IMG/VR virus record: IMGVR_UViG_3300042464_001105
Span: 24,178 to 88,177 of that record
Length of the DNA stretch: 64,000 bases
Source: a virus
Direction: 5' to 3' (one strand)
The position numbers and the translations under genes are program-made. Shown piece after piece: positions 1 through 34,472 of the stretch. Under the pieces are notes generated by a model. It was not told where the DNA came from. It ran no database searches and worked only from the letters and a program-made list of their open reading frames with translations. Each line of letters begins with the position of its first letter. The stretch's first letter is position 1.

Positions 1-551
1 ACATTGCACGTGTGCTGGTCCCCGGGGGCTGCTTCTACATCTGGGGTGGTTACGCCAACTGCGGCAACTATCCCCCGTTCCTGAAGAAGCATGGATTGTA
101 CTTCAGCCAAGCGATCATCTGGAACAAGATGCATCCGGTTTTGACACGTAAAGATTTTATGGGCGCTCACGAGTGGGCGTTCTATGGATGGAACGAAGGT
201 GCCGGCCACAAGTACTATGGGCCGAACAACGAAACCGATTTGTGGAATGTTAAGAAGATCCCGCCACAACAACTTGAGCATCTGACTGGCAAGCCTGCCG
301 AGCTCGCGGTTCGATCAATTCAGTACTCGTCGCTTCCTGGCCACAACGTACTCGACCTCTTCGGTGGCAGCGGCTCAACCTTGATTGGCGCTGAGCAGAC
401 TGGACGCAATGCGTTCTTAATGGAACTCGATTGTCCATACGCAGACGTAATCGTTGATCGGTACCAAAGGTTCACCGGCAAGCAAGCGATTCTCGAGCGA
501 ACGGGTGAGTCACCGATTCCGATGAAGCCACGTGAAGCGAACATGCGATAG
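1..551 (+). CDS. DNA methyltransferase, N4/N6 (beta-class) family, 5'-truncated by the window edge
   Basis: HLTGKP followed by VLDLFGGSGSTLIGAEQTGR (SAM-binding FxGxG) and MELDCPYADVIVDRY; typical phage methylase upstream of the terminase. Confidence 0.9.
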   Translation, partial: IARVLVPGGCFYIWGGYANCGNYPPFLKKHGLYFSQAIIWNKMHPVLTRKDFMGAHEWAFYGWNEGAGHKYYGPNNETDLWNVKKIPPQQLEHLTGKPAELAVRSIQYSSLPGHNVLDLFGGSGSTLIGAEQTGRNAFLMELDCPYADVIVDRYQRFTGKQAILERTGESPIPMKPREANMR

Positions 552-561
552 GAGGTCGCGT

Positions 562-879
562 TCAAAGTTTATGACAATGCCAAGCTTGATCCTCGAAAAC
601 ATAAACGTACTCAGTACCACAGTTCCTTGCGAACTCGTGGAGGGCAGCGCGCGTTGGCATGGCGACCGCGTTATTGCCAGCGGTAAATCGCTCCGGACTA
701 CCGTCGTTAGCGAGCGATCGAATATCGCCGCCAGCAACAAGCGTCCGTACCGAATCAATAGCGATGTAGTTTTGTTCGAGAATCTTGCCGGCATGGTCTG
801 GGTAACCATCGAAGTGCAGATAGATCGCCGCATACCGACCATCGTCTTGCTTGCAAGCGATCGTGGCTCGTGTAGACAT
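562..879 (-). CDS. Conserved phage hypothetical protein (MSTR...IYxHxDGYP family)
   Basis: MSTRATI...AIYLHFDGYP...EYVYVFED..W pattern recurrent in phage proteins; AAGGA SD. Confidence 0.8.
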   Translation of the reverse strand: MSTRATIACKQDDGRYAAIYLHFDGYPDHAGKILEQNYIAIDSVRTLVAGGDIRSLANDGSPERFTAGNNAVAMPTRAALHEFARNCGTEYVYVFEDQAWHCHKL

Positions 880-891
880 GTTTTGTGTTCC

Positions 892-1116
892 TTACTTCGA
901 TGGTTCGTGATGGTTGGGTTCGACGATAGAGACGCAATCGTCAGGCATCGTCAACATGAGGGTTCGACCGTTGTCCCAATCAACATCGATCTGCGTCCAG
1001 TCGCGATGATCGTAAACGGCGACAACGGTTCCGAGCGATCCAACGGGAATCGGATCGGGATCCTGCAGCATCGACACCAAACGGATGCGATCGCCTTGCT
1101 TCAATCGTGTTTTCAT
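892..1116 (-). CDS. DUF4314-like protein
   Basis: GDRIRLVSMLQDPDPIPVGSLGTV...IDVDWDNGRTLML; usual neighbour of phage amidoligases. Confidence 0.85.
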   Translation of the reverse strand: MKTRLKQGDRIRLVSMLQDPDPIPVGSLGTVVAVYDHRDWTQIDVDWDNGRTLMLTMPDDCVSIVEPNHHEPSK

Positions 1117-1161
1117 AGTTGTTGGTTCCTTACTGTGAGCGAAGCAAAAAAATACGAACCG

Positions 1162-1196
1162 TCACAATCAGCCAGCAAGTCAAGAAAACATCAAGC
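1162..1196 (-). promoter_or_regulatory. Repeated promoter-like motif, copy 1 (degenerate)
   Basis: Minus strand gcTTGATGttttcttgacttgctggctgattgtga, upstream of gene start 1116. Confidence 0.45.
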
Positions 1197-1365
1197 CGAC
1201 ATCCAAGCTTGTTTTCTAGATTTCTTGCAAATATGTGGATCCGCCGGAGAAGCTCAGGGTTGCGTTGTGTCGCGTTGCATTTCAGGTTGGGTTTGTGCCC
1301 GTATCCACGAGGAAAAGCCCACACGTTGCAAACGTTGGGCGATTGGTGTGGGATCCAGCGAAGTA

Positions 1366-1785
1366 TTAATCTCGACTCGGAACCAACACGCATGCTCCGT
1401 CACCAGTGATTGGGTACTCCTTCAGTTCGCTTGTCCTTGCGAACAACTGGTCGCTTCGACGTATCACGTAGTCAACGTATGCGAAGCACTCGGTATCATC
1501 AATCCGCCTGAGTTGGTACCGAACTCCCGGTTCAGGAACAGCGATCTGTTCGACGTACAGGTCCGAGATGGTCTTCACTTCGTCAATGTAAGGGCCGGCT
1601 GGTCGCAAAATGCCCAGCGTGCTGCGAAACGAAATGCGTTGGCCTGTTGCTTGGTTGGTGGCGATGATATGTGTGGTCTCGCCAGCCTTCGACGGCTGAA
1701 AGATCGATTCGACCTTGACGATGATCGTCTTACCACAATGGCAAGCGACATACCGCTCGCCAATCCGGATGTCTTTGGCTCGCAT
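1366..1785 (-). CDS. Hypothetical protein; N-terminus paralogous to that of the next gene
   Basis: MRAKDIRIGERY...ATNQATGQRISFRS resembles MKKAEVTIGGKY...ATNLATGKKVLIKS of 1789-2367. Confidence 0.7.
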   Translation of the reverse strand: MRAKDIRIGERYVACHCGKTIIVKVESIFQPSKAGETTHIIATNQATGQRISFRSTLGILRPAGPYIDEVKTISDLYVEQIAVPEPGVRYQLRRIDDTECFAYVDYVIRRSDQLFARTSELKEYPITGDGACVLVPSRD

Positions 1786-1788
1786 GAT

Positions 1789-2367
1789 CTAGCCCCGTAC
1801 CGTAAAGCGGCCGCGTTCTGTTTTGACAAACTTGCTGTCGTCGCCCTTGGCCAGGTCGCGAAGGATCGCGCTATACAAGGTCGCGTGCGGAGTCTTGCCC
1901 CCAGGACTCGACCAGTAACCCTTGGCTTCCATCGCGGTAACCAACTCTTGAGCATTCATCGGTTCGGAGGATTCGCCAAGGACCTTCAAAGCCGCCGTGA
2001 CGCAACTCAATCGCTTCTCGCTGGCGTCGGCGCTTTCCGTCGCTGTTGCTGCAGTCTTTGCCTTACGAAGCTTCTTTGGAACCGCCCCTACTGTGGATGC
2101 TGCTTCTCCAATCGTCTCGACCGTAGCCGGTTCGTTCTCAACAATCGTGACGTTACCTTCTGTGGTTACCTTCGCGCCTCCGCGCCGCATGCCGACTTCA
2201 CCCTGCAAGCGCTGAGCGCTCTTGATCAGGACCTTCTTACCGGTCGCGAGGTTGGTGGCATCCCAGCCACCGCGCGGCTTCTCGGCGTCGATCTGGATCT
2301 CACATCGATTGCAAGAAACGTTTGCATAGTACTTGCCGCCGATCGTAACTTCTGCCTTCTTCATCAT
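1789..2367 (-). CDS. Winged-helix (HARE-HTH-like) DNA-binding protein
   Basis: LSCVTAALKVLGESSEPMNAQELV...GKTPHATLYSAILRD...FVKTERGRF; start chosen after the GGAG SD. Confidence 0.8.
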   Translation of the reverse strand: MMKKAEVTIGGKYYANVSCNRCEIQIDAEKPRGGWDATNLATGKKVLIKSAQRLQGEVGMRRGGAKVTTEGNVTIVENEPATVETIGEAASTVGAVPKKLRKAKTAATATESADASEKRLSCVTAALKVLGESSEPMNAQELVTAMEAKGYWSSPGGKTPHATLYSAILRDLAKGDDSKFVKTERGRFTVRG

Positions 2368-2457
2368 TCTTTCTCCCAATTCGTATTCGTGGTTGGCTGC
2401 CATCGTCAGGTCGATCGAACCACCGATCAACTACGCGATTCCGTTCCGCGTTTCGGC

Positions 2458-2793
2458 TTATTTGGAAAAGACCAAGTCGGCCAATCCGGTAGAAAGAAAA
2501 TCCACAATCACCTGAATCTCTGTATTAGCCGCAGGTACATCCAATCCGCGGTCAAAGCTAAAAAGTGTTTTGTGGTCGGCGATTCGTTCGATCCAAAGTT
2601 TCGAGATCTTGCTCTTGCCCAATTCGTAGTCTTCGCTTTTTGCGTGCTCGGCGAAAACCAAAGCGTTGAACTTGTATTGCTCGTTGACCGTTCCAATCAC
2701 CCAGGTACCGCCACCCGTGGTGCGTCGATCGATCTTGGTGATCGTCAGGTCGAGGTCTATGTCGTTTTCCCCGTTGTTGTTTGTCTTTGTCAT
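2458..2793 (-). CDS. Hypothetical phage protein
   Basis: GGAG SD then ATG 2793; FNALVFAEHA...ISKLWI...FDRGLD. Confidence 0.7.
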   Translation of the reverse strand: MTKTNNNGENDIDLDLTITKIDRRTTGGGTWVIGTVNEQYKFNALVFAEHAKSEDYELGKSKISKLWIERIADHKTLFSFDRGLDVPAANTEIQVIVDFLSTGLADLVFSK

Positions 2794-2835
2794 CTTTGCG
2801 TCTCCGTTTTGAAAAGCTGTGAACATCGTTTTGCG

Positions 2836-2876
2836 TCAACACACAGTTCGCATGCGCTTCGCATTACATCAAGCGC
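2836..2876 (-). promoter_or_regulatory. Repeated promoter-like motif, copy 2
   Basis: Minus strand gcgcTTGATGtaatgcgaagCGCATGcgaacTGTGTGTTga, upstream of gene start 2793. Confidence 0.55.
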
Positions 2877-2928
2877 TGTTGGAAAAGATTCAGATAATTC
2901 TTTTCCACAGCGCCGCGGTTCGTCGCGA

Positions 2929-3201
2929 TCAGAAATCTCGACACGTCTCCCAAGCTCGTTTGCTGCCGTAGCAGATCTGCCCACCTTCGACGATGTAGAC
3001 CGTGTTGTCATCGGCAACGTCTTGGGCATCGTCTTCGTCCGCATCTTCGTCGCTTGCTTCGTTCATGTCGCGGCCGCTGGTCACGCCGAAGATACGGTTC
3101 TCGAAAGGCCAATTCTGCTGAGTCATCAACCGTATTTTGGCGTCGCCTCCGAACTCTTCGCGGTAGTCGTTGAGGATTTCGATCAAGGTGTCGAGGTTCA
3201 T
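2929..3201 (-). CDS. Hypothetical acidic phage protein
   Basis: GGAG SD; MNLDTLIEILNDY...RLMTQQNWPFE...VYIVEGGQICYG. Confidence 0.75.
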   Translation of the reverse strand: MNLDTLIEILNDYREEFGGDAKIRLMTQQNWPFENRIFGVTSGRDMNEASDEDADEDDAQDVADDNTVYIVEGGQICYGSKRAWETCRDF

Positions 3202-3239
3202 GTTCTTATCTCCGTTGGGGTGAATGAAAAGTCGTTTTC

Positions 3240-3280
3240 CGATAACACACATGAGCCATGCGGTTTGAACCGAAGCAACT
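3240..3280 (-). promoter_or_regulatory. Repeated promoter-like motif, copy 3
   Basis: 26 bp cgataacacacatgagccatgcggtt identical to 3726-3751; upstream of gene start 3201. Confidence 0.65.
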
Positions 3281-3486
3281 CAAATCCAGAAGGTTTTCCC
3301 AGTCTTTTGGAATGTTTTTTTGAATGCCCAACGGTGCACAACGTTGGCGCATGTCGCGTCGTTTTCGAAGTCGCATTGTTGGGCGTGGCGAGCCAGCAGG
3401 ATGCGACGGTGGGCGAGTGTGTCGACCAAGCGAGAAAACGCCGCGCATCCGTACGCGGCGTTCTAGGGATATTGCTTGTGCGCTGT

Positions 3487-3684
3487 TTAAAGGATCGAAC
3501 CGAGTCGGCTCTTCTTCATCGCTTCGAGTGCTTCGCAGGCGTAAAGGTGTTCGACGAGCAAAGGGCATGCGGACTCTTGTTGTGCTGCGTCGGCGATCTC
3601 GAGGGCGTCTGCCAAGGTTCGCAATCCCTCGATCTCTCGAAGAGCGGCGTCGGTTGCTTTGTGTTCGTTGCTGTTCTTGGCCAT
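3487..3684 (-). CDS. Small hypothetical protein
   Basis: GGAG SD, preceded by a copy of the repeated promoter-like motif. Confidence 0.6.
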   Translation of the reverse strand: MAKNSNEHKATDAALREIEGLRTLADALEIADAAQQESACPLLVEHLYACEALEAMKKSRLGSIL

Positions 3685-3725
3685 GGTTCTGTCTCCGTTG
3701 TGGGAAAGGGTTTGAATCGTTTATG

Positions 3726-3768
3726 CGATAACACACATGAGCCATGCGGTTCAAAACACATCAAGCGC
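3726..3768 (-). promoter_or_regulatory. Repeated promoter-like motif, copy 4
   Basis: Minus strand gcgcTTGATGtgttttgaacCGCATGGCTcatgTGTGTtatcg, upstream of gene start 3684. Confidence 0.65.
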
Positions 3769-3978
3769 AGTATGCGAGTAAATGGAAAAGATTCTGCAGC
3801 TTTCTTCCGGTGCCGACACAAAGCACAAAACGCGACGTGTGGCGTTCAAAAAAAGCTTGGGTCGCCATTAGTTACTTACCCCAAGGATGCGACTGCTGGC
3901 GGACGTTACGATCGAGAATGCCAGAACAACGAACTACGTCGAGCGATTCTGCTCGGCGTAGTTCGTGGATCTCGTTTC

Positions 3979-4839
3979 TTAGGCAGCCGTGTCGTATTTC
4001 TTGGCCAAGTCCAAAAGTTTCGTTTTGATCGTCTTCCAATCTGGGGTTTGGTCCCCGTTGGTGATCTCGCCGAAGGTCTTCTTTCGAAGGTCGCCCTTGT
4101 ACCAACCCTTGGTCCATCCGAGCCGGTAGAACAGTCGGTTCAATTCCGTTTCGCCGAGGCCGGCATCGGGGCGATCCCAGCAGCTCTTGGTTCCTTCTTT
4201 CTTGGCGTAATCCCAATCGGGGCATCGTTTGGAGTTGAGGGCGAGTTCGACCAAACCCAAAACCATCATCAGGTATCCAATCACCTTGGTTTTGTTCAGC
4301 GTGCCGGCGAAAGCTCTGAACTCGATTCGGTTCTTGCCTTGTCGAAGGTGGGTCAAATTCAAAAGATGGTAGCGGTCCGATTCGCATTGGCTCTTCGCGG
4401 TGTCTTTGTCGCCGTAGTGTTTGATCTTCTTGGTGTATACCGCGTGTTCGCGTCGTCGCGATCCGGTCGAGGCGAAGATCGCTCGTTCGTGGTTGCCGAC
4501 CAAGGAAATCAATCTTGCCAGGGCGGCGGCGTCTCCGTTGAAGGTCAGGGTTATGTGAAGTCCGCAGCTTGCGTTGACCCGTGCGTCGCGAGTATTTATC
4601 GCGTCGATCGCGTTCTCAACCTCTTTCATTCCTGCGTATCCGACAAGTTTTGGGCTTACAAACTCGCAGCCTTTGCGGCTCATGTTTTCCGGTTTGATAC
4701 TCGCGTCGCGTTCTGCTTTCCATCCGGTTGGAAGCCAGGGTACTTGGTAACCGCCGTGGTAGGGGCCGATCGGTGTATTGTCGGTACCGGGGAGGGTGGT
4801 TTCGAATTCAATTCCGAAGGTGATCTCGTTTGCGTTCAT
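3979..4839 (-). CDS. Putative amidoligase (Amidoligase_2-like)
   Basis: TFGIEFE, DASI, CEFVSP, VNASCGLHI, RYHLLNL, IEFRAF motifs; AAGGA SD. Confidence 0.9.
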   Translation of the reverse strand: MNANEITFGIEFETTLPGTDNTPIGPYHGGYQVPWLPTGWKAERDASIKPENMSRKGCEFVSPKLVGYAGMKEVENAIDAINTRDARVNASCGLHITLTFNGDAAALARLISLVGNHERAIFASTGSRRREHAVYTKKIKHYGDKDTAKSQCESDRYHLLNLTHLRQGKNRIEFRAFAGTLNKTKVIGYLMMVLGLVELALNSKRCPDWDYAKKEGTKSCWDRPDAGLGETELNRLFYRLGWTKGWYKGDLRKKTFGEITNGDQTPDWKTIKTKLLDLAKKYDTAA

Positions 4840-4892
4840 CGTTCTGTTCCTTTGTGGTTCAAGGTGTGTTTTGCGTCGCGCTTTCCGCGTCG

Positions 4893-4934
4893 CGATGACA
4901 CAATGGAGCCATGCGTTTCGAGGATCATCCAGCC
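4893..4934 (-). promoter_or_regulatory. Repeated promoter-like motif, copy 5
   Basis: Minus strand gcTGGATGatcctcgaaaCGCATGGCTccatTGTGTcatcg, upstream of the amidoligase. Confidence 0.6.
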
Positions 4935-5113
4935 GCTTCCTGCATGTTTTTTCAGTAATTGTGCATGTTTTCTGAGAGGCAACCGGTGCCCCAACATTAC
5001 GCCACGGTGGCGTCCAAACATGCATCGCATAACAAGGCGAACATGCAAACAAAACGCGACTGTGGCGAACGTGTCGCAACCAGTGGCAATTCAACGGATC
5101 ATGGAGGAATGGG

Positions 5114-5320
5114 ATGAGTGAAGGCAACAACCAGGTCGACCCAACGCGACTTTCGATCGAGCAGGCAGGAAAGCTACTTTCAGCTGCTTATCGAGAGCGA
5201 ATAGAGGTCGCAAAGATTCAGGAAGACATCGACGCCGGCGCACCGACCAATGCCGACGGAACGATCAACCTCGTGCACTACAGCGCATGGCAAGCAGAGG
5301 AGATGGGACATGGCGAATAG
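5114..5320 (+). CDS. Small phage protein, possibly a terminase small-subunit-like DNA-binding protein
   Basis: GGAGGA SD at 5103-5108; LSIEQAGKLLS...DIDAGAPTNADGTINLVHYSAW; position before the terminase. Confidence 0.75.
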   Translation: MSEGNNQVDPTRLSIEQAGKLLSAAYRERIEVAKIQEDIDAGAPTNADGTINLVHYSAWQAEEMGHGE

Positions 5321-5330
5321 AATCGCGACG

Positions 5331-5768
5331 CTAAGAGATTGGAAGAGTCCAGTCTTGGACAGTCAATCCAGGAATTCGCTCATAATCAACTGTATTTCGT
5401 GTTATGACAGTCATGTGCTGACTGATCGCAATCGATGCAATCCGCAGATCCATGGTTGCGACTCGAATTCTATTACGCTTAAAGTCCTCGAATACCTCGG
5501 ATGCCGCGAGGTTGAACGGAAGAACCTGCGAGCAAGAGAAGTCCTTCAAAACTTGTTCGAGTCGAGCATACCCAGTGACAATCTTTTGAGGGCTATTCGA
5601 CTGTTTAACATACTTTGTCCAACCTGCAACAATCTCGTGAAAAGAGACGATGGTTGTGTACACGTTCGAATCACTAACTACTGCAATTCTTTTGAGAACG
5701 TTAGTGCAGTCTTCGCCCCTGTGGCCTTGCAAGATGCCAAGGTGATCCGTGTAGAGAATAAACATCAA
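5331..5768 (-). CDS. vapC: PIN-domain (VapC-like) toxin
   Basis: IVSFHE, MDLRIASIA, VITRNTVDYERIPGL motifs; the N-terminal motif reads LYTD rather than LDTD. Confidence 0.85.
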   Translation of the reverse strand: MMFILYTDHLGILQGHRGEDCTNVLKRIAVVSDSNVYTTIVSFHEIVAGWTKYVKQSNSPQKIVTGYARLEQVLKDFSCSQVLPFNLAASEVFEDFKRNRIRVATMDLRIASIAISQHMTVITRNTVDYERIPGLTVQDWTLPIS

Positions 5769-5770
5769 CC

Positions 5771-5977
5771 TTACTCGTCATTCAGAATATCGGTTTGCCG
5801 CTCTTCACGCCCCAACCGGAGAATCTCTGCAAAATCGGGGTCATCTTTGAACGAACCTTCGATTTTGGCGATCCACCCTGGTTTCTTCGCAGCGAGATCG
5901 ATTTTGCTTGATTGCGAAAGCTTAAGAAGAGTTACTTCCTTTTCCAATTGCTCAAGTCGTTCTTCAACCGTGGCCAT
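5771..5977 (-). CDS. Putative antitoxin
   Basis: GGAG SD; MATVEERLEQLEKEV...GSFKDDPDFAEILRLGREER; directly upstream of the PIN gene. Confidence 0.75.
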   Translation of the reverse strand: MATVEERLEQLEKEVTLLKLSQSSKIDLAAKKPGWIAKIEGSFKDDPDFAEILRLGREERQTDILNDE

Positions 5978-6054
5978 ATACATCTCCAAGGAATCCAACA
6001 AGACACGACGTTCTATTGTACCTTGTAGTTCATCCAAAGGGAAAGGCCGAAAAG

Positions 6055-8322
6055 ATGCGATCTGATCCAAGGAAACTAAAGCCAAGCGAGCTATGCCGAC
6101 TGCTCAATTCAACACCGCTGGGTGAGGTGATCAGCGAGCGACAACTGTATCGGCATCGTCAGCGCGCCGGCGCACGCATTGGTGATAACAAGACCGTTGA
6201 TTTGCTTCGCTATTGTGCTTGGATGCATCGCGTACGACACACGCCTCGGGCGACAAGCGGTGTTGATCCATACGATGCGATGAAAGAGCGAGCGCGTGCA
6301 CGCAATGCAGCACTGGCACTCGCTGGTCGCGACATTGGTGAACTGCCGGAGGTCGACAACGTTGATCGCAAAGATCGCGCAGCGCGTGACTTCCGCTATT
6401 TCTGTGAAACGTATTTCCCATTGACGTTTCATCTTGCGTGGTCGCCGGACCACATCAAGGTCATGGATAAGATTGAGCAAGCCGTTGTCCATGGGGGATT
6501 GTTTGCGCTAGCGATGGCGCGGGGTAGTGGGAAAAGTTCGATCGCCGAGGTTGCCTGCATCTGGGCAGTTCTATATGGGCATCGCAACTTCGTTTGTTTG
6601 ATCGGCAGCGATGAAGGCCATGCGTGTGACATGCTCGACTCGATCAAAACAGAACTCGACAGCAACGAGTTGCTCTTGGCCGATTTCCCCGAAGTTATCT
6701 TTCCTATTCAAGCCCTCGATGGGATATCGAATCGAGCTAATGGGCAGCTTTATAAAGGCAAGCGAACGCAGATCGGATGGACCGCAAAGGAGGTAGTGCT
6801 ACCAACGATTGATGGCAGCAGTGCCAGCGGTGCGATTATCAAAGTGGCTGGCCTGACCGGTCGTATCCGAGGTATGAAGTTCAAACGCCCTGATGGCAGA
6901 ACGGTGCGTCCAAGTTTAGTCGTGCTCGATGACCCCCAGACCGACGAGAGTGCTCGTTCGCTATCGCAATGCGCGAATCGCGAAAGCATTCTCGCCGGCG
7001 CAGTCCTTGGCTTAGCAGGACCGGGCAAAAAGATCTCTGGCATCATGCCCTGTACCGTCATTCGCCCGAGCGACATGGCCGACAATATCCTCGATCGCAA
7101 TCGCCATCCCGAATGGAATGGCGAACGAACCAAGATGGTTTATGCGTTCCCTAAGAATGAAACGCTGTGGGAGCGCTATGCCGAGATCCGTGCCGAAGGA
7201 ATGCGTAACGGCGATGGTGGCGAATCGGCCACCGAGTTCTATCGTCAGAACCAAGCCGCGATGGATGAGGGTGCTGTTGTCGCTTGGCAAGAGCGATTCA
7301 ACTACGACGAACTCTCCGCGATCCAGCACGCAATGAATCTCAAGTTGCAGGACGAGGCCGCATTCTTTGCCGAGTATCAAAATCAGCCTCTGCCGGCGGA
7401 AACGATTGTCGATGGGATGCTCAAGCCCGAGGAGGTCGCAAGCAAGGTTAATCGTATGGATCGCGGGTTATTATCGATTGGAGCAAACCAACTCACCGCC
7501 TTCATCGACGTTCAGCAGAAGCTTTTATTTTATGCGGTCACCGCCTGGGAGGATAATTTCACGGGCTACATTGTCGACTATGGCTGTTACCCCGATCAAC
7601 AGCGTCCCTACTTCACGCTGCGCGAGGCTCGCCAGACGCTGAGCTCCGAAGCGACTGGAACCGGACTCGAGGGTTCGATCTATGCCGGCCTCGAATCGCT
7701 GACATCGAAATTGCTCGATCGTGAGTGGCAGCGCGACGATGGTGCAGCGATGCGCATCGGTCGCTGTTTGATCGACGCTAACTGGGGCCAATCGACGGAT
7801 GTCGTCTACCAGTTCTGCCGGCAGTCCAAGCACGCCGCTGTGATCATGCCCAGCCACGGTCGGTTCGTCGGCGCTTCAAGTTTGCCGTTCAGCGAGTATC
7901 GTCGCCGACCAGGTGATCGCGTAGGACTCAACTGGCGCATCCCAAACGTTAGCGGGAAGCGGGCGATTCGCCACGTGGTATACGACACCAATTGGTGGAA
8001 GTCGTTTGTCAACGCTCGCCTTCGAGTGAACATGGGAGATCGTGGTTGTCTATCGCTCTTCGGTAGCAACTCCGAAACGCATCGCATGCTCGCCGAGCAT
8101 CTAACTTCGGAGTACTTCATCAAGACCGAGGCTCGCGGCCGAAGCGTTGACGAATGGAAGCAGCGACCTGAGCAGCCAGACAACCACTGGTTCGACTGTT
8201 TGGTTGGCTCAGCGGTTGCGGCTTCGATGCAAGGAGCAATTTTATTTGGAACCGAAGCAACACTCGATATTTCCCGAAAACGCATGAGTTTTAAAGAGCT
8301 TCAGCAGACCCGACGCAAATAA
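6055..8322 (+). CDS. Terminase large subunit (GpA-like nuclease domain, N-terminal HTH-like extension)
   Basis: Walker A ARGSGKS, Walker B VVLDDPQ, nuclease motifs AFIDVQ, LIDANWG, NHWFDC. Confidence 0.9.
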   Translation: MRSDPRKLKPSELCRLLNSTPLGEVISERQLYRHRQRAGARIGDNKTVDLLRYCAWMHRVRHTPRATSGVDPYDAMKERARARNAALALAGRDIGELPEVDNVDRKDRAARDFRYFCETYFPLTFHLAWSPDHIKVMDKIEQAVVHGGLFALAMARGSGKSSIAEVACIWAVLYGHRNFVCLIGSDEGHACDMLDSIKTELDSNELLLADFPEVIFPIQALDGISNRANGQLYKGKRTQIGWTAKEVVLPTIDGSSASGAIIKVAGLTGRIRGMKFKRPDGRTVRPSLVVLDDPQTDESARSLSQCANRESILAGAVLGLAGPGKKISGIMPCTVIRPSDMADNILDRNRHPEWNGERTKMVYAFPKNETLWERYAEIRAEGMRNGDGGESATEFYRQNQAAMDEGAVVAWQERFNYDELSAIQHAMNLKLQDEAAFFAEYQNQPLPAETIVDGMLKPEEVASKVNRMDRGLLSIGANQLTAFIDVQQKLLFYAVTAWEDNFTGYIVDYGCYPDQQRPYFTLREARQTLSSEATGTGLEGSIYAGLESLTSKLLDREWQRDDGAAMRIGRCLIDANWGQSTDVVYQFCRQSKHAAVIMPSHGRFVGASSLPFSEYRRRPGDRVGLNWRIPNVSGKRAIRHVVYDTNWWKSFVNARLRVNMGDRGCLSLFGSNSETHRMLAEHLTSEYFIKTEARGRSVDEWKQRPEQPDNHWFDCLVGSAVAASMQGAILFGTEATLDISRKRMSFKELQQTRRK

Positions 8323-8407
8323 TTTTTGGGACGTCGTTCGGACAAATTGCATAGTTAGTACTGGAAGAGGCAATCGAGTTTCTTTTTCACTCGAAGAGGG
8401 TTTCCAG

Positions 8408-8605
8408 ATGTTAGATAACTTGCAAGACGCGATTCGCGACAATGCCAAGGCACCCGCCAAGGCGTCAGGTGATGCTGGCAGTGTTGAGCAACATAACCTC
8501 AAGGATCAAATTGAAGCGGACAAATACCTCGCCTCCAAGCGAGCGACCCAAACTAAGAATCGTGGATTGCGATTTAACAAGATCGTGCCACCTGGCGCGG
8601 ACTAA
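8408..8605 (+). CDS. Small head-completion-type protein (gpW position)
   Basis: 65 aa between terminase and lambda-type portal; GAGGG SD. Confidence 0.65.
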   Translation: MLDNLQDAIRDNAKAPAKASGDAGSVEQHNLKDQIEADKYLASKRATQTKNRGLRFNKIVPPGAD

Positions 8606-8660
8606 CTAAGCATCTTCGGAAATAGGCTGTCGGAACAGCGACACTCAAGGAAAGACACGG

Positions 8661-10154
8661 ATGTTCCCATACTTGTCAGGGATCTTTAGCAAAAGACCTC
8701 GTCGGACAGTCCGTCCGTCGCGGGGTGGAAGCTTGTTCCGACAGCCTTTCTCATTCAAACCGCGTGTTGATGCTCGTTATGACGCAGCGGTTACCAACGA
8801 TGACAATCGAAGACATTGGTCGGCCGCTGATGGTTTGTCTGCAAAAACTGCGAACGGGGCCAGCATCCGCCGGACCTTACGCAACCGAGCACGTTATGAA
8901 ATTGCCAACAACAGCTACGCACGTGGCATTTCGCTGACGTTGGCCAATGACATTGTGGGTACCGGTCCTCGTCTACAAATGCTTACCGATGATCCCATTG
9001 CCAATCGCACCATCGAAATGGAGTTCAGTCGCTGGTCCAATGCGGTCGGTCTCGCTGAGAAACTAAGAACGATGAAGTTGGCCTGCTGTGGCGATGGGGA
9101 AGCCTTCGGCATTATGACCAGCAACCCAAGCGTCCAAACACCGGTTCAATTGGACTTGATGCTTGTCGAAGCAGACCAAGTGACCACTCCATTCGGTGTG
9201 AATGGTTTGTCCAACTACATCGATGGTATTCAATTCGACTCCTTCGGGAATCCTGTCTATTACCACGTACTCAAGTCGCATCCAGGTGACACCGGATCTG
9301 CGTGGGGTGAATTCGATATCGTTGCAACCAGTGCGATGTTGCATTTGTTTCGTGTGGATCGGCCTGGCCAAGTACGTGGCATCCCAGAGATCACACCGGC
9401 GCTTCCGTTGTTCGCACAACTTCGGCGATTCACGCTCGCGGTGATTTCTGCCGCCGAAACCGCAGCTGACTTTGCTGGGATTTTGTACACCGACTCCCCC
9501 GCAAATGGTGAAGCCGATGCAGCCGAACCATTTGAACCGATCGAACTAGAGAAGCGAACTCTGGTAACGATGCCTGGCGGATGGAAGATGAGCCAAATTC
9601 ACGCCGAGCAGCCAACGACCTCGTATGCGGAATTCAAACATGAAATCCTCAATGAGATCGCGCGCTGCCTCAACATGCCGTTCAATGTCGCAGCTGGGAA
9701 TTCTTCGGGCTACAATTATGCGAGTGGGCGACTCGATCACCAAACCTACTTCAAATCCATCCGTGTCGATCAGTCGAATATGGCACGTGTGGTGCTCGAT
9801 CGCATTCTATCAGCGTGGCTCAGCGAAGCCATTCTCATTGAAGGCTTACTGCCTCAATCTGTTCGAACAACAGACTTCGACGCCTCGCATCAATGGTTCT
9901 TCGATGGACATGAGCATGTCGATCCATTGAAAGAGGCAAACGCCCAAGCAACACGTCTTTCCAATCATACCACGACTCTGGCATACGAGTATGCGCGACA
10001 AGGTCGTGATTGGGAAGATGCCCTCTTTCAACGAGCCAAGGAATTGGCATTGATGTCTGAGCTTGGCCTTGCATTACCTGGCGCACCGGTGCCTGTACTT
10101 ACCCCCGATGTCAACGAGGAGTCTCTCAGTGACCCAGCTGCTAACGATGAATAG
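8661..10154 (+). CDS. Portal protein, lambda family
   Basis: LRNRARYE..NNSYA, DGEAF, RPGQVRGIP, NYASGRL, HVDPLKEANA. Confidence 0.93.
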   Translation: MFPYLSGIFSKRPRRTVRPSRGGSLFRQPFSFKPRVDARYDAAVTNDDNRRHWSAADGLSAKTANGASIRRTLRNRARYEIANNSYARGISLTLANDIVGTGPRLQMLTDDPIANRTIEMEFSRWSNAVGLAEKLRTMKLACCGDGEAFGIMTSNPSVQTPVQLDLMLVEADQVTTPFGVNGLSNYIDGIQFDSFGNPVYYHVLKSHPGDTGSAWGEFDIVATSAMLHLFRVDRPGQVRGIPEITPALPLFAQLRRFTLAVISAAETAADFAGILYTDSPANGEADAAEPFEPIELEKRTLVTMPGGWKMSQIHAEQPTTSYAEFKHEILNEIARCLNMPFNVAAGNSSGYNYASGRLDHQTYFKSIRVDQSNMARVVLDRILSAWLSEAILIEGLLPQSVRTTDFDASHQWFFDGHEHVDPLKEANAQATRLSNHTTTLAYEYARQGRDWEDALFQRAKELALMSELGLALPGAPVPVLTPDVNEESLSDPAANDE

Positions 10155-31194: not shown

Positions 31195-33375
31195 CTACTC
31201 GTCATCATCGTCTTCATCGCCCTCGTCTTCATCCGTTTCAGCTGCTATGGACTCGAGGTATTCAACACGAACATCCCGAAGTGATTTCTTGCCCTGCTTT
31301 TCTACTAGAAAGAACCACCAGCCATTCGTGGCAACACCTGTGAGTGCTTTTGCTGCTTCAGAAGCAGTTGCACAAACGGTCCCGTCAATATCGACTCGTC
31401 CGTCCCCAAGCAAGGTGGCTGCTTTCTGCGAGAACTTCTTTTGCCTTGGAATCAGTGTCATGCCAACTTGAAGGCAGCCTGCGCTTAACAACACACTTAG
31501 ATCGACGCGATATCGTGGCCTTGTTTTTTCTGCAGTGAATGCCGATTTGTGACCATCCGGAGTGGGCCAGATTTCTACGATTAGTTTCGCCAGAGAGTCC
31601 GAACGACTTCGGATTTTTGAGTCGTTCCAATCGGCCTCTGCAAACTCTAGGAGTTTACGATTTAGCATAAGGACATCATGTGCCTTTAATCCCTGCATTT
31701 TTCCGCTAACTCCGCCCCACGGACCGTTCGAAACTTTTGAATTGAGTCGTGAAGTGAGTAAAGTCAAATTGCCAATCGTGTGAATTAGTGCATCGCGTTC
31801 GCCTTCGGAGCGTGAGCCTTCAGGTAACGACCAATGAACTTGCCATTTTCGAGGCATTACATGCTCAATTGCGTATTTTCCGCGAAACACGCGCTCGAAG
31901 TTGAAACTAACCTGCGTACCGCACCAGCCTCGAAGATGGTCTTCGATTGCTTCGATCACCATTCGAAGTCGACCGCGCCCCAGTCGTCGATACGCTGGCA
32001 GGACTCTCAGCTCCTCTCGTACTTCGTTGTCATCTGGCCAGTAGCGGCTTTCACTCGTTTGGCCCGCGAAAAAGGTTTCAATCGCGTCACCAACTTTGGT
32101 TCGATCTTGATTTGACAAATGCCGAATCAGTTCCGCAACAATCTGGCTGTAGCTCTTGGTTGTAGCTCTGACGAGCATTCGCCTAACCATCCAGCTCTCA
32201 ATCACACTCAAAGCCTTTAAAAGTTGCTCTTTCGGGATGGTTGATTTCTCTGGATCCAAAAGATTGAGGACCAAAGGCTTGATGACTTCGCTTTCCAACA
32301 CACTTGATCGGTACGAAAAAAGCCCTAATCGGTCAATCATGCCGGTGGGTTGCAATCCATCGAGAATAAACACTCGATATATCGTTGCGGATCGACTGAT
32401 CTGCTTTAGAAGCTGCTGCATCGGCAGCCCTGATTCAATTGCGTAACGTTTAAACCGAGTGAATACTTCGCGAGCGACAACCTCCTCTCCAGTTTGTGCG
32501 ATCAACCAATGATTGAGATAAATGGATGATCGCGGATAACGCATTCGACCAACATTGACTTCAGCTTCCCAAAATGCCGACTCAAAATCTTTCCAGTTTT
32601 GAACATAAGCTGTCTCCACATCCGCACCAGAATCCAGCAACCGTTGAAAGACAAAGTTTTTTATCAAGTCGGCAGCGGTCAACTGTGCTCCGCGTGCATT
32701 TAGAGTCTCGAATATCTCTTGTGCATTCTCGTCGACGCCCAAATCGATAACTACCATCTGCAATAGATCGCGGATAACGGTTTCGATTGCCATAGAGCGT
32801 GCTGTAATCGACTCCAAACCATCAGCCTTCAGCCATTGTCGTGCCTGTTCCGCGAAATAACGATGTGCTTGCACCATCCGCTCCTCGCCAAACCCGACAG
32901 AATCGTAGTCGACAGGTTCCGTGGCCGACATCACAGCGTTGAAAGCGGGGCGATCTCGATTGGTTGGCCAAACCTTGAATCGATCCTCCGGCTGTGAACA
33001 AAAGGGAGCTGCATTCACGACAAGCGTTTCAAGTCGCATCGCTGGAGCTGTGGCACCAACCGCAATGAGTTCAGCGTGCAAAGCATCAAACAATAGCTGC
33101 AGCGTCGTCAGTCGCTGTTGCCCATCGATGATCGTACGTTCCTGCATCGTGCCGACAGAGTTTTGCACCTGTTGCAGTACAACCGCGCCGATAAAGTGCG
33201 GCTGATGCGTGGACGTTGGTGCCTTCAAAACACGCTCTGTTAAGCGAATCACATCATTCCAAAGGGGCTCCCACTGATTCTCTTCGCTCCACACGTAAGG
33301 ACGCTGAAATAGAGGTACTGTCAAGCGTTGTGGGTGCATGAAAACCGTTTGAGGCGTACGAACTTGGGTTTCCAA
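31195..33375 (-). CDS. gmrSD: GmrSD-type (DUF262 + DUF1524 HNH) type IV restriction endonuclease with a RAMA-like C-terminal domain
   Basis: VPLFQRPYVW, IIDGQQRLTT, IFETLNARG, IEHVMP, IGNLTLL...NS, NGWWF; true start may be the TTG at 33375 or nearby. Confidence 0.9.
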   Translation of the reverse strand: METQVRTPQTVFMHPQRLTVPLFQRPYVWSEENQWEPLWNDVIRLTERVLKAPTSTHQPHFIGAVVLQQVQNSVGTMQERTIIDGQQRLTTLQLLFDALHAELIAVGATAPAMRLETLVVNAAPFCSQPEDRFKVWPTNRDRPAFNAVMSATEPVDYDSVGFGEERMVQAHRYFAEQARQWLKADGLESITARSMAIETVIRDLLQMVVIDLGVDENAQEIFETLNARGAQLTAADLIKNFVFQRLLDSGADVETAYVQNWKDFESAFWEAEVNVGRMRYPRSSIYLNHWLIAQTGEEVVAREVFTRFKRYAIESGLPMQQLLKQISRSATIYRVFILDGLQPTGMIDRLGLFSYRSSVLESEVIKPLVLNLLDPEKSTIPKEQLLKALSVIESWMVRRMLVRATTKSYSQIVAELIRHLSNQDRTKVGDAIETFFAGQTSESRYWPDDNEVREELRVLPAYRRLGRGRLRMVIEAIEDHLRGWCGTQVSFNFERVFRGKYAIEHVMPRKWQVHWSLPEGSRSEGERDALIHTIGNLTLLTSRLNSKVSNGPWGGVSGKMQGLKAHDVLMLNRKLLEFAEADWNDSKIRSRSDSLAKLIVEIWPTPDGHKSAFTAEKTRPRYRVDLSVLLSAGCLQVGMTLIPRQKKFSQKAATLLGDGRVDIDGTVCATASEAAKALTGVATNGWWFFLVEKQGKKSLRDVRVEYLESIAAETDEDEGDEDDDDE

Positions 33376-33501
33376 AGCGTGTTAACTCCTTCAAAATTCT
33401 TGGAATTTTTGAGCCCAGAGAACGCCCCCGAAACGCAAGCCTCTGATAGTCTTTTTGTTGATTCGTTCGAAGAAACGAGCGTTTGGCGCTTGCACGACTC
33501 A

Positions 33502-33534
33502 TTGAAAAGCATACCAAACCTTGGTAAGGTTTGG
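33502..33534 (+). promoter_or_regulatory. Sigma70-like promoter overlapped by a palindromic operator
   Basis: TTGAAA (33502)-17 bp-TAAGGT (33525); CCAAACCTT-ggt-AAGGTTTGG at 33514-33534. Confidence 0.6.
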
Positions 33535-33572
33535 CTAGTTCGGGTAACCAATTAATTTACCGGGAGACTGCT

Positions 33573-33794
33573 GTGAACAAACTCAAGGACTTCTTACGAA
33601 TCACTGAGGCTGCCGTTTATCTGGGCGTGTCACCAAACACGTTACGGAACTGGGAGAACTCCGGCAAAATTATCGCTCACCGTCATCCTGTGAACGGTTA
33701 CCGGCTATTCAAACAGGAAGAGCTCGACACTCTTCTAAGTCTTGCAGAGCGTCCAAGCACGGGCGTTCAAGATTCTTATCGAAAACCGCGTTGA
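33573..33794 (+). CDS. MerR/excisionase-like HTH protein heading the BREX operon
   Basis: GGGAG SD, GTG start; ITEAAVYLGVSPNTLRNWE..G...NGYRLF. Confidence 0.85.
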   Translation: MNKLKDFLRITEAAVYLGVSPNTLRNWENSGKIIAHRHPVNGYRLFKQEELDTLLSLAERPSTGVQDSYRKPR

Positions 33795-33860
33795 TAAAAG
33801 GAACAAAAGCCGATAACGCCCCAAAAACGTCGTTTCGCCGATACTCACATGGACACGTGC

Positions 33861-34472
33861 ATGAGCAAGACCAAGTTCGCGCTTTCGTTTACCGCGGGAG
33901 GACTTCTATACAACGAATCAATCGTTGTTGCCGAAGCCCTTTTGAGGAACGATCACGACTGGAATACGACACTCATTGAGGTTGAACAAAAGAATCTACT
34001 TCAAAGCCGCACGCCTAGTACTGCGAAACGCAAACTGCATGAGATCTCCCAACGCATGAAGTGCCTAACAGCTGATCAATTGGCACTGTTGGTCAATGGA
34101 ACGCGGTTGGAACAGAAGCTCATTCTGTGGTTAGCATGCTGCCTCAAATATCCGCTTCTCGCTGAATTGGCACGCGATGTGTTACGTGCCAAGTTCCTAC
34201 AGCTCGACTACGCGATAGATGCGGTCGATGTTGCGAAGTTCATCGAATCGCAAACCTTGTGGCACGAAGAATTGGAGGAGCTAACCCCATCAACACTAAC
34301 CAAACTTCAGACAGTCATGCTTCGAATGCTCAGAGAATCCGAGTTGGTTTCGGACGACGGAATCATTTCATCTCCCTTGGTCTCCGGTCGCTTCATTCAA
34401 GTTCTCCAGCGTGACTCATCAAGCCACCTGCTTTTCTTCCCACTGGTGATTGAGAACGGACGGGTGACTTAA
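33861..34472 (+). CDS. brxA: BrxA (DUF1819)
   Basis: LSFTAGGLL, NLLQSRT.ST, STLTKL; first BREX gene. Confidence 0.88.
   Translation: MSKTKFALSFTAGGLLYNESIVVAEALLRNDHDWNTTLIEVEQKNLLQSRTPSTAKRKLHEISQRMKCLTADQLALLVNGTRLEQKLILWLACCLKYPLLAELARDVLRAKFLQLDYAIDAVDVAKFIESQTLWHEELEELTPSTLTKLQTVMLRMLRESELVSDDGIISSPLVSGRFIQVLQRDSSSHLLFFPLVIENGRVT

What the first reader, a model, noticed from the sequence alone, without database searches (positions are those of the whole stretch)
5297..6065. A second, independent bridge frame across the antisense toxin-antitoxin insert ends on the terminase start
Seen: GAGGAG-7nt-ATG (5310) overlaps the end of gene 5114-5320, stays open for 251 codons and stops at TGA 6063-6065, overlapping terminase ATG 6055, which has only a weak SD. 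It is in register with the toxin gene but not with the antitoxin gene, so simple antisense shadowing does not explain all of it. Inference: 5310 is the ancestral terminase start, split off by the TA insertion, and the open frame restores coupling. Both antisense inserts in this operon are bridged, which supports a general rule. Caveat: chance shadow ORFs of about 250 codons occur in this window, so the exact endpoints are the evidence, not the length.
Basis: partly seen in the sequence, partly recalled or inferred. Interest (0 to 1): 0.8.

Follow-up and report, generated by a model that had tools for sequence, protein, structure and literature searches.

The report
Relic-start bridge frame over toxin cassette
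A toxin-antitoxin cassette landed backwards in the 11-base overlap between two phage DNA-packaging genes, and the old start codon left behind now opens a stop-free frame running across the cassette to the packaging gene's new start; it may carry ribosomes across, but three sister insertions lack it.

Summary
GAGGAG, 7 nt, ATG 5310, 251 open codons and TGA 6063-6065 are all present. The frame is in register with the PIN toxin (5331-5765, minus) but not with the antitoxin (5771-5977, minus).

The "ancestral start" inference holds. In 221 of 225 related junctions, the 68-aa gene and the terminase gene meet without an insert, mostly in an 11-nt overlap. Window 5310 aligns with the terminase start there. 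An empty-site joint (5316 to 6063) occurs in lake metagenomes.

The "general rule" fails at this junction. Of four independent PIN-cassette insertions, only the window lineage is bridged; the other three have 3-11 stops in the relic frame.

Chance openness is about 1-2% by codon resampling, and 0 of 19 host cassettes are open. Three things raise the prior for a function:
- The same operon has a real 4.6-kb bridge frame that relatives also keep.
- The scan found the same design before on other DNA: F-plasmid trbH over vapBC, which I re-checked here.
- The scan also noted a bridged ParE cassette, which I did not check.

My odds are about 48% for a translated bridge favoured by selection and about 44% for a chance shadow of the toxin gene. 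No expression data decide between them.

The parts
532..5121 (+). Context: a 1529-codon stop-free + frame antisense to a block of real minus-strand genes. It ends 8 nt into the 68-aa gene.
   Evidence: ORF; the minus ORFs hit HARE-HTH, DUF7678, Amidoligase_2 and DUF4314 at 1e-12 to 1e-14, and the + ORF hits nothing; comparable + ORFs occur in relatives.
5114..5320 (+). 68-aa conserved gene (g68) directly upstream of the large terminase. It is a candidate packaging partner by position only.
   Evidence: homologue in all loci with upstream sequence; alignment. No family found.
5297..5302 (+). GAGGAG, the ancestral Shine-Dalgarno of the terminase. It is also codons E-E of g68.
   Evidence: Relatives have AAGGAG at the same place.
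5310..5312 (+). Relic terminase start. It is ATG here and GTG in relatives; the change is CGT to CAT in g68 codon 66.
   Evidence: codon 66 is CGT in 98 loci, AGT in 6, GGT in 4 and CAT in 1.
5310..6065 (+). The bridge ORF: 251 codons, no family, Ser/Arg/Cys/Asn-rich.
   Evidence: Identity to L082 in this frame is 78%, against 90% and 91% in the toxin and antitoxin frames.
5317..6062 (.). Inserted cassette: 746 nt replacing one G of the empty site. The net gain is 745 nt, a +1 frame shift.
   Evidence: joint 5316 to 6063 with a G between; loose ends in X2 and X5.. GC 45-47% against 52-57% in the flanks.
5331..5765 (-). VapC-like PIN toxin, 144 aa. None of its 11 Leu and 11 Ser codons is TTA, CTA or TCA.
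5771..5977 (-). Antitoxin, 68 aa, with no Tyr or His and 3 Gln, so few stops are possible in the offset + frame.
   Evidence: Homologues lie next to the toxin in 21 host-family loci.
5978..6054 (.). The cassette's own upstream region. It holds a purine-rich GGAAAGG (6040-6046) 8 nt before the terminase ATG.
   Evidence: conserved in L082 and L083, which lack the terminase. (no stable RNA structure, z = +1.16).
6055..8322 (+). Large terminase (gpA-like), with its present ATG start.
   Evidence: N-terminus M-x-x-D-P-R-K aligns with relatives.
6063..6065 (+). TGA that ends the bridge ORF. It is formed by terminase codons 3-4 (xxT GAy) and sits where the ancestral g68 stop sat relative to the start.

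Best explanation
Shown: a VapBC-like (PIN toxin plus small antitoxin) cassette with its own upstream region was inserted backwards into the 11-nt overlap that joins the 68-aa gene to the large terminase gene in this group of planctomycete phages. The left copy of the overlap stayed because it encodes the end of the 68-aa gene. It therefore still carries the terminase's old ribosome-binding site and start codon. The terminase received a new ATG at the right end.

Inferred: ribosomes still load at the relic site. They read the mirror frame of the toxin gene and then an offset frame over the antitoxin and its promoter region. They stop at the TGA 8 nt past the new terminase ATG, which reproduces the ancestral stop/start geometry. 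In this reading the product is junk. The act of translation is the function: it keeps the forward late transcript covered by ribosomes (against Rho-type polarity) and delivers them to the terminase start. Selection has favoured or kept this cassette stop-free in that frame.

The device is helpful, not obligatory.
For: Relic start and insertion site:
-.

Openness is unusual:
- P = 0.018 by synonymous resampling.
- 0 of 19 host toxin-antitoxin loci have any open antisense frame; their in-register frame has 2-13 stops.

Maintenance hint:
- 97 differences separate the window from the L082 copy. About 4.4 new stops are expected in the relic frame.
- One is seen, and it lies in L082, which has lost both the relic start and the terminase.

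Same operon:
- The 1529-codon + frame lies over Pfam-verified minus genes.
- Long + ORFs end at the 68-aa gene in 38 of 60 relatives by a strict filter.
- All 7 loci re-examined have them, at 1130 to more than 1911 codons.

Independent precedent checked here, F plasmid trbH:
- It overlaps the traD stop (TGATG) and the traI start (ATGA), is antisense to vapC/vapB, and is in register with vapC only.
- It is also open in the Salmonella (86%) and Serratia (73%) traD-traI contexts. An Agrobacterium homologue outside tra has 8 stops.

Other points:
- The relic start changed from GTG to ATG, through R to H at an otherwise conserved codon.
- Rho is encoded by both Pirellula MAGs that carry the cassette.
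- Coupling needs overlaps or very short distances (PMC10666635, abstract).
Against: - Three of the four independent insert lineages at the same junction are not bridged. The relic frame stops after 49 (L054), 145 (L091) and 25 (L027) codons. That leaves 562, 305 and 748 nt to the terminase start, and their stop counts are ordinary. All three have the long upstream bridge.
- All four insert lineages start the terminase with ATG, against GTG in 95 and ATG in 19 empty unique junctions. The window has a purine-rich motif upstream and no masking structure. So autonomous initiation is likely.
- The endpoints are explained by ancestry.
- The maintenance test is not significant (P about 0.06-0.11).
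- There is no diversity within the cassette in three metagenomes, so no population test is possible.
- There is no strand-specific RNA or ribosome data.
Confidence: 0.48

Rival explanations
1. Chance shadow ORF. The relic start and the terminal TGA are inherited by-products. The frame between them is open only because this toxin allele happens to use no TTA, CTA or TCA codon, the antitoxin has no Tyr or His, and the 77-nt spacer happens to lack stops. The terminase is translated from its own ATG. Any translation of the 251-codon frame is noise.
For: - 3 of 4 insert lineages are unbridged, with ordinary stop counts.
- 4 of 28 host toxin homologues also have no in-register stop, so the toxin part alone is not rare.
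- The antitoxin part is open in 59% of resamplings.
- Shadow ORFs of 247-402 codons occur elsewhere in the window.
- The endpoints follow from g68 and terminase coding.
- The terminase has ATG in all insert lineages and an unstructured start region.
- There is no protein-level constraint on the frame.
Against: - The joint probability is about 1-2% per insertion, or about 3-7% for at least one in four lineages.
- The coincidence lies in an operon that demonstrably keeps a 4.6-kb antisense frame open.
- It has the same layout as conserved trbH in F-like plasmids.
- No stop arose on the window branch, where about 2.2 were expected.
Confidence: 0.44
2. The 251-codon frame encodes a real protein, that is, an overlapping antisense gene.
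For: It has a strong start context and is long. Long translated antisense genes have been reported in bacteria (PMC8850804, search listing only).
Against: - No Pfam or PHROG family.
- Composition is typical of a mirror frame.
- Identity to L082 is 78% in this frame against 90-91% in the toxin and antitoxin frames.
- The frame is broken in L082, L083, L054 and L091.
Confidence: 0.03

Closest known systems
F-plasmid trbH frame over vapBC between traD and traI (NC_002483)
   Same: - An antisense VapC/VapB cassette sits inside a co-directional operon.
- The + ORF has about 240-250 codons.
- Its start overlaps the upstream gene's stop, and its stop overlaps the downstream gene's start.
- It is in register with the toxin and out of register with the antitoxin.
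   Different: - In F the overlaps are 1 and 4 nt, not 11 nt.
- The frame is kept in three diverged tra lineages (100, 86 and 73% identity). Here only one of four insert lineages has it.
- The literature treats trbH as a little-conserved, non-essential gene (PMC5102898, passages). I found no paper describing it as a bridge.
In-register antisense 'shadow' ORFs
   Same: The toxin part is the classic mirror frame, whose stops can come only from TTA, CTA or TCA codons. There is no protein-level constraint.
   Different: The frame continues out of register over the antitoxin and a 77-nt spacer, and it begins at a bona fide former start site.
Translational coupling by termination-reinitiation (Huber et al., PMC10666635 abstract; PMC6728339 listing)
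   Same: The stop of the upstream frame lies within a few nt of the downstream start. The gene pair probably forms a complex.
   Different: The overlap is 11 nt rather than the common 4 or 1. The upstream frame here is not a gene but a read-through of an insert. Coupling was not measured.
Ambigrammatic narnaviruses (PMC8316113 and PMC8155312, listings with abstract starts)
   Same: A reverse frame is kept open in register with the forward gene. Translation, rather than the product, is thought to matter.
   Different: Those are RNA viruses with one gene and a genome-length frame. Here it is a DNA phage, a 0.75-kb insert, and selection is not shown.
Phage morons and prophage toxin-antitoxin cassettes
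   Same: A self-promoted accessory cassette of lower GC sits between conserved late genes.
   Different: It sits precisely inside a start/stop overlap, four times independently, always backwards and always as a PIN cassette.

Membership tests
Type II VapBC (PIN) toxin-antitoxin | PIN-domain toxin | tested here: inconclusive
   Pfam PIN scores 22.8 bits against a cut-off of 23.6. NCBIfam VapC models give E 2e-11 but fall below their cut-offs. PHROG 13721 hits at 3e-11. Homologues in L054, L091 and L027 pass the Pfam cut-off at 31-48 bits. Plasmid homologues are annotated as VapC.
Type II VapBC (PIN) toxin-antitoxin | Small antitoxin gene immediately upstream in one operon | tested here: met
   The 68-aa ORF ends 5 nt before the toxin start. 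The same pair occurs in 21 host-family loci.
Type II VapBC (PIN) toxin-antitoxin | Toxicity neutralised by the antitoxin | not testable with these tools
   Needs expression assays.
Shadow ORF (mirror frame of a real gene) | In register with the sense gene, and no constraint on its own protein | tested here: met
   Register is by coordinates. Identity is 78% against 90%. This holds for the toxin part only; the antitoxin part is out of register.
Shadow ORF (mirror frame of a real gene) | Openness no greater than codon usage predicts | tested here: inconclusive
   P = 0.018. 0 of 19 host loci are open. Only 1 of 4 insert lineages is open.
trbH-type translated bridge | ORF antisense to a cassette, overlapping the upstream gene's end and the downstream gene's start | tested here: met
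   There is an 11-nt overlap at each end.
trbH-type translated bridge | Frame kept open in diverged relatives that carry an insert | tested here: not met
   L054, L091 and L027 have 11, 3 and 11 stops in the relic frame. Copies of the same cassette: L001 is open (8 differences), and L082 has 1 stop (97 differences, context lost).
trbH-type translated bridge | The frame is translated and downstream expression depends on it | not testable with these tools
   The one RNA run holds only a 245-nt contig of unknown strand over 5719-5963.
Termination-reinitiation coupling | Stop and start within a few nt on one mRNA | tested here: inconclusive
   The geometry is met: TGA lies 8 nt after ATG, as in 120 of 158 empty junctions. 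Whether one mRNA spans both is unknown. The consensus scans found no more promoter- or terminator-like sites than in shuffles.

The most novel reading that the evidence does not exclude
Backward toxin-antitoxin cassettes that land inside tightly coupled operons persist best when a leftover copy of the downstream gene's start drives a stop-free 'bridge' frame across them. That would be a general anti-polarity device, seen in this phage (TA bridge plus the 4.6-kb bridge), in F-like plasmids (trbH over vapBC) and in a ParE cassette noted earlier by the scan. In it, translation itself is the function, not the product.
Probability: 0.45. Interest if true: 0.8.

Novelty: new variant of a known kind. 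Interest (0 to 1): 0.5.

Why it matters
If the frame is functional, it shows how a selfish cassette can sit backwards inside a coupled gene pair without cutting the operon. The old start codon is recycled to carry ribosomes across the insert. That would explain "genes" such as trbH, and it would warn annotators that some long antisense ORFs are translated but not protein-coding.

If it is chance, the case is still a clean, dated example of three things. One is a relic ribosome-binding site kept by an overlapping gene. Another is an insertion hotspot exactly in a start/stop overlap. The third is how easily a toxin gene's mirror frame can mimic design.

Either way, gene callers will tend to pick the 271-codon + ORF here instead of the real toxin-antitoxin pair.

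Tried and rejected
Searches that gave nothing useful:
- blastn of 4000-9000 against the phage collection found no match.
- Viral scans with the window's toxin and L054's toxin returned only the contigs already known.
- A second terminase scan from a distant clade gave no new insert.

Identity of the 68-aa gene:
- No hit at the thresholds used in Pfam, PHROGs, NCBIfam or a profile search of PDB.
- A TrwC match at E 0.002 over 37 residues was judged spurious.
- Its likeness to lambda Nu1 is my recollection only. "Small terminase" is by position, not shown.

Signals looked for and not found:
- Promoter- and terminator-like sites are no more frequent than in shuffles.
- No terminal inverted repeats flank the cassette.
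- No RNA structure masks the terminase start.

Sequencing runs:
- The cassette shows 0-1 differences in the three DNA runs, so no polymorphism test was possible.
- RNA run X23 holds one 245-nt contig over 5719-5963, of unknown strand and possibly DNA. The absence of RNA cover elsewhere says nothing.

Other points:
- The real-protein reading was rejected (see rivals).
- Using the GmrSD gene (31195-33381, minus, unbridged) as a counter-example was rejected, because it lies in a defence island, not in the late operon.
- In the unbridged lineages, + ORFs of 150, 101 and 85 codons end within 25 nt of the terminase start. I judged this roughly expected and did not test it.
- Supplementary tables of PMC5102898 (trbH distribution) were not seen.
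Full report
WHAT IS THERE

The window is the right 64 kb of an 88-kb viral contig.

- GAGGAG lies at 5297-5302, followed by 7 nt and then ATG 5310.
- The frame stays open for 251 codons and ends at TGA 6063-6065.
- ATG 5310 lies inside the last codons of a 68-aa gene (5114-5320, here g68).
- The TGA lies 8 nt past ATG 6055 of a gpA-type large terminase (GpA_nuclease 1.7e-22; terminase PHROGs).

On the minus strand lie a 144-aa PIN toxin (5331-5765) and a 68-aa antitoxin (5771-5977). The + frame shares codon boundaries with the toxin but not with the antitoxin. Its product hits no family.

WHERE IT CAME FROM

Scans with the terminase fetched 80 viral contigs, 80 metagenome contigs and 80 viral loci from a distant-clade query; 2 of the last were already held.

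- Of 225 junctions with both genes (144 unique sequences), 221 have no insert.
- In the first 158, 120 have exactly an 11-nt overlap. There the terminase GTG sits inside g68's last codons, and g68's TGA sits 8 nt after it, preceded by AAGGAG.
- Window 5310 aligns with that GTG. Homology to the terminase resumes at 6063.
- A lake-metagenome contig joins 5316 to 6063 with a single G between. Two other runs show the empty-site sequence as loose ends at 6063.

So 746 nt replaced one base, and the relic-start inference is right. The insert has lower GC. Its right end is conserved in Pirellula MAG copies that have no terminase, so that end belongs to the cassette.

A HOTSPOT, AND THE TEST OF THE RULE

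Four loci carry inserts at this junction, making four lineages: L001 (the window's cassette), L054, L091 and L027.

- All are backward PIN cassettes.
- On a terminase tree the insert label needs 4 changes. Window plus L001 are sister to empty L002, and L027 is sister to empty L028.
- The relic frame is open only in the window and L001.
- It stops after 49 codons in L054, 145 in L091 and 25 in L027, and all three + frames have stops in those loci.

All four lineages start the terminase with ATG. Among empty unique junctions, 95 use GTG and 19 use ATG. That points to autonomous initiation after insertion. The start region is not structured.

IS THE OPEN FRAME MORE THAN CHANCE?

- The toxin's 11 Leu and 11 Ser codons include no TTA, CTA or TCA.
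- Resampling synonymous codons with phage usage gives P = 0.03 for the toxin, 0.59 for the antitoxin and 0.018 for both.
- In 201 host-family genomes the toxin has homologues in 51. Of the 28 full-length ones fetched, 4 have no in-register stop.
- Of 19 toxin-antitoxin loci, none has any antisense frame open. The in-register frame has 2-13 stops.
- Allowing for insertion phase, a chance bridge has roughly 1-3% probability per insertion.
- A 90%-identical copy in a Pirellula MAG (L082) keeps a remnant of g68 but has lost the relic start and the terminase, and it has one stop.
- 97 differences separate L082 from the window. About 4.4 new stops were expected and one is seen. P is about 0.06-0.11, which is a hint only.
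- The frame's protein is unconstrained: 78% identity against 90-91% in the toxin and antitoxin frames.

CONTEXT THAT RAISES THE PRIOR

The other "bridge" is real.
- The 1529-codon + frame at 532-5121 is antisense to minus genes with Pfam hits at 1e-12 to 1e-14.
- Long + frames end at g68 in 38 of 60 relatives by a strict filter.
- All 7 re-examined loci have them, some ending 60-155 nt short of g68.
- Earlier scan notes said the same.

Scan notes on other DNA led me to F plasmid trbH, which I checked.
- trbH overlaps the traD stop and the traI start. It is antisense to vapC/vapB and in register with vapC only.
- It is also open in Salmonella (86%) and Serratia (73%) tra operons. An Agrobacterium homologue outside tra has 8 stops.
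- F against Salmonella shows 105 differences. About 2.9 stops were expected and none is seen.

Rho is present in both MAGs that carry the cassette. Coupling needs overlaps or very short gaps (PMC10666635, abstract).

VERDICT

Shown:
- the insertion;
- the relic start;
- the register;
- the hotspot;
- the lack of a rule at this junction.

Inferred:
- ribosomes load at 5310 and run to 6063.

Undecided:
- whether the openness is selected.

Weighing about 1-3% chance against 1 bridged lineage in 4, and a prior raised by the neighbouring bridge and by trbH, I put 48% on a favoured translated bridge, 44% on a chance shadow ORF and 3% on a real protein.

IN PRINT

My searches found:
- ambigrammatic narnaviruses;
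- shadow and overlapping antisense genes;
- termination-reinitiation coupling.

They found no description of a bridge frame over an antisense cassette in a phage or in F. trbH appears only as a poorly conserved tra gene (PMC5102898, passages). The 1993 trbH mutant paper was seen only as a title in reference lists and is not held.

Noticed in passing
window 5316/6063; L054 5292-6001; L091 3587-4327; L027 5178-6001: The 11-nt start/stop overlap between the 68-aa gene and the terminase is an insertion hotspot. There are four independent insertions, all PIN toxin cassettes and all backwards. Each keeps the left copy of the overlap and makes a new ATG on the right.
   Followed up: partly
terminase start in L001, L027, L054, L091 and window 6055: All insert lineages start the terminase with ATG. 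Among empty unique junctions, 95 use GTG and 19 use ATG.
   Followed up: partly
L082 (Pirellula sp. MAG contig) 2600-3560: This locus holds the same cassette at 90%, with the last 29 codons of the 68-aa gene on one side and only the first 8 nt of the terminase on the other. It is then unrelated DNA. It looks like a prophage remnant or a cassette moved together with its flanks.
   Followed up: partly
L083 / L165 (second Pirellula MAG): The 78%-identical toxin copy has an internal TGA, so it is probably a pseudogene.
   Followed up: no
window 5719-5963: The only part of 4800-6800 found in a lake metatranscriptome run is a 245-nt contig over the antitoxin and the toxin's 5' end. Its strand is unknown.
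   Followed up: no
L054 5573-6025; L027 5691-5996; L091 4058-4315 and 4183-4323: In the unbridged lineages, + ORFs of 150, 101, 85 and 46 codons still end within 25 nt of the terminase start. I did not test this against a null.
   Followed up: no
window 532-5121 and relatives: The giant + frame ends overlapping the 68-aa gene's start in some relatives (window, L016, L027, L028, L091). In others it ends 60-155 nt short (L001, L002, L054).
   Followed up: partly
L275 2458-3177 (F plasmid), L276, L278: The classical trbH ORF of F is the mirror frame of vapC/vapB, with exact overlaps on traD and traI. It is kept open at 86% and 73% identity.
   Followed up: partly
window 31195-34472: A GmrSD-type restriction gene lies on the minus strand next to BrxA (BREX) on this viral contig. 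There is no long + frame over it.
   Followed up: no
runs X2, X3, X5: Insert-bearing contigs (depth 6-22) and about 90%-identical empty-site relatives (depth 6-83) co-occur in the same lake samples from 2016 to 2024.
   Followed up: no
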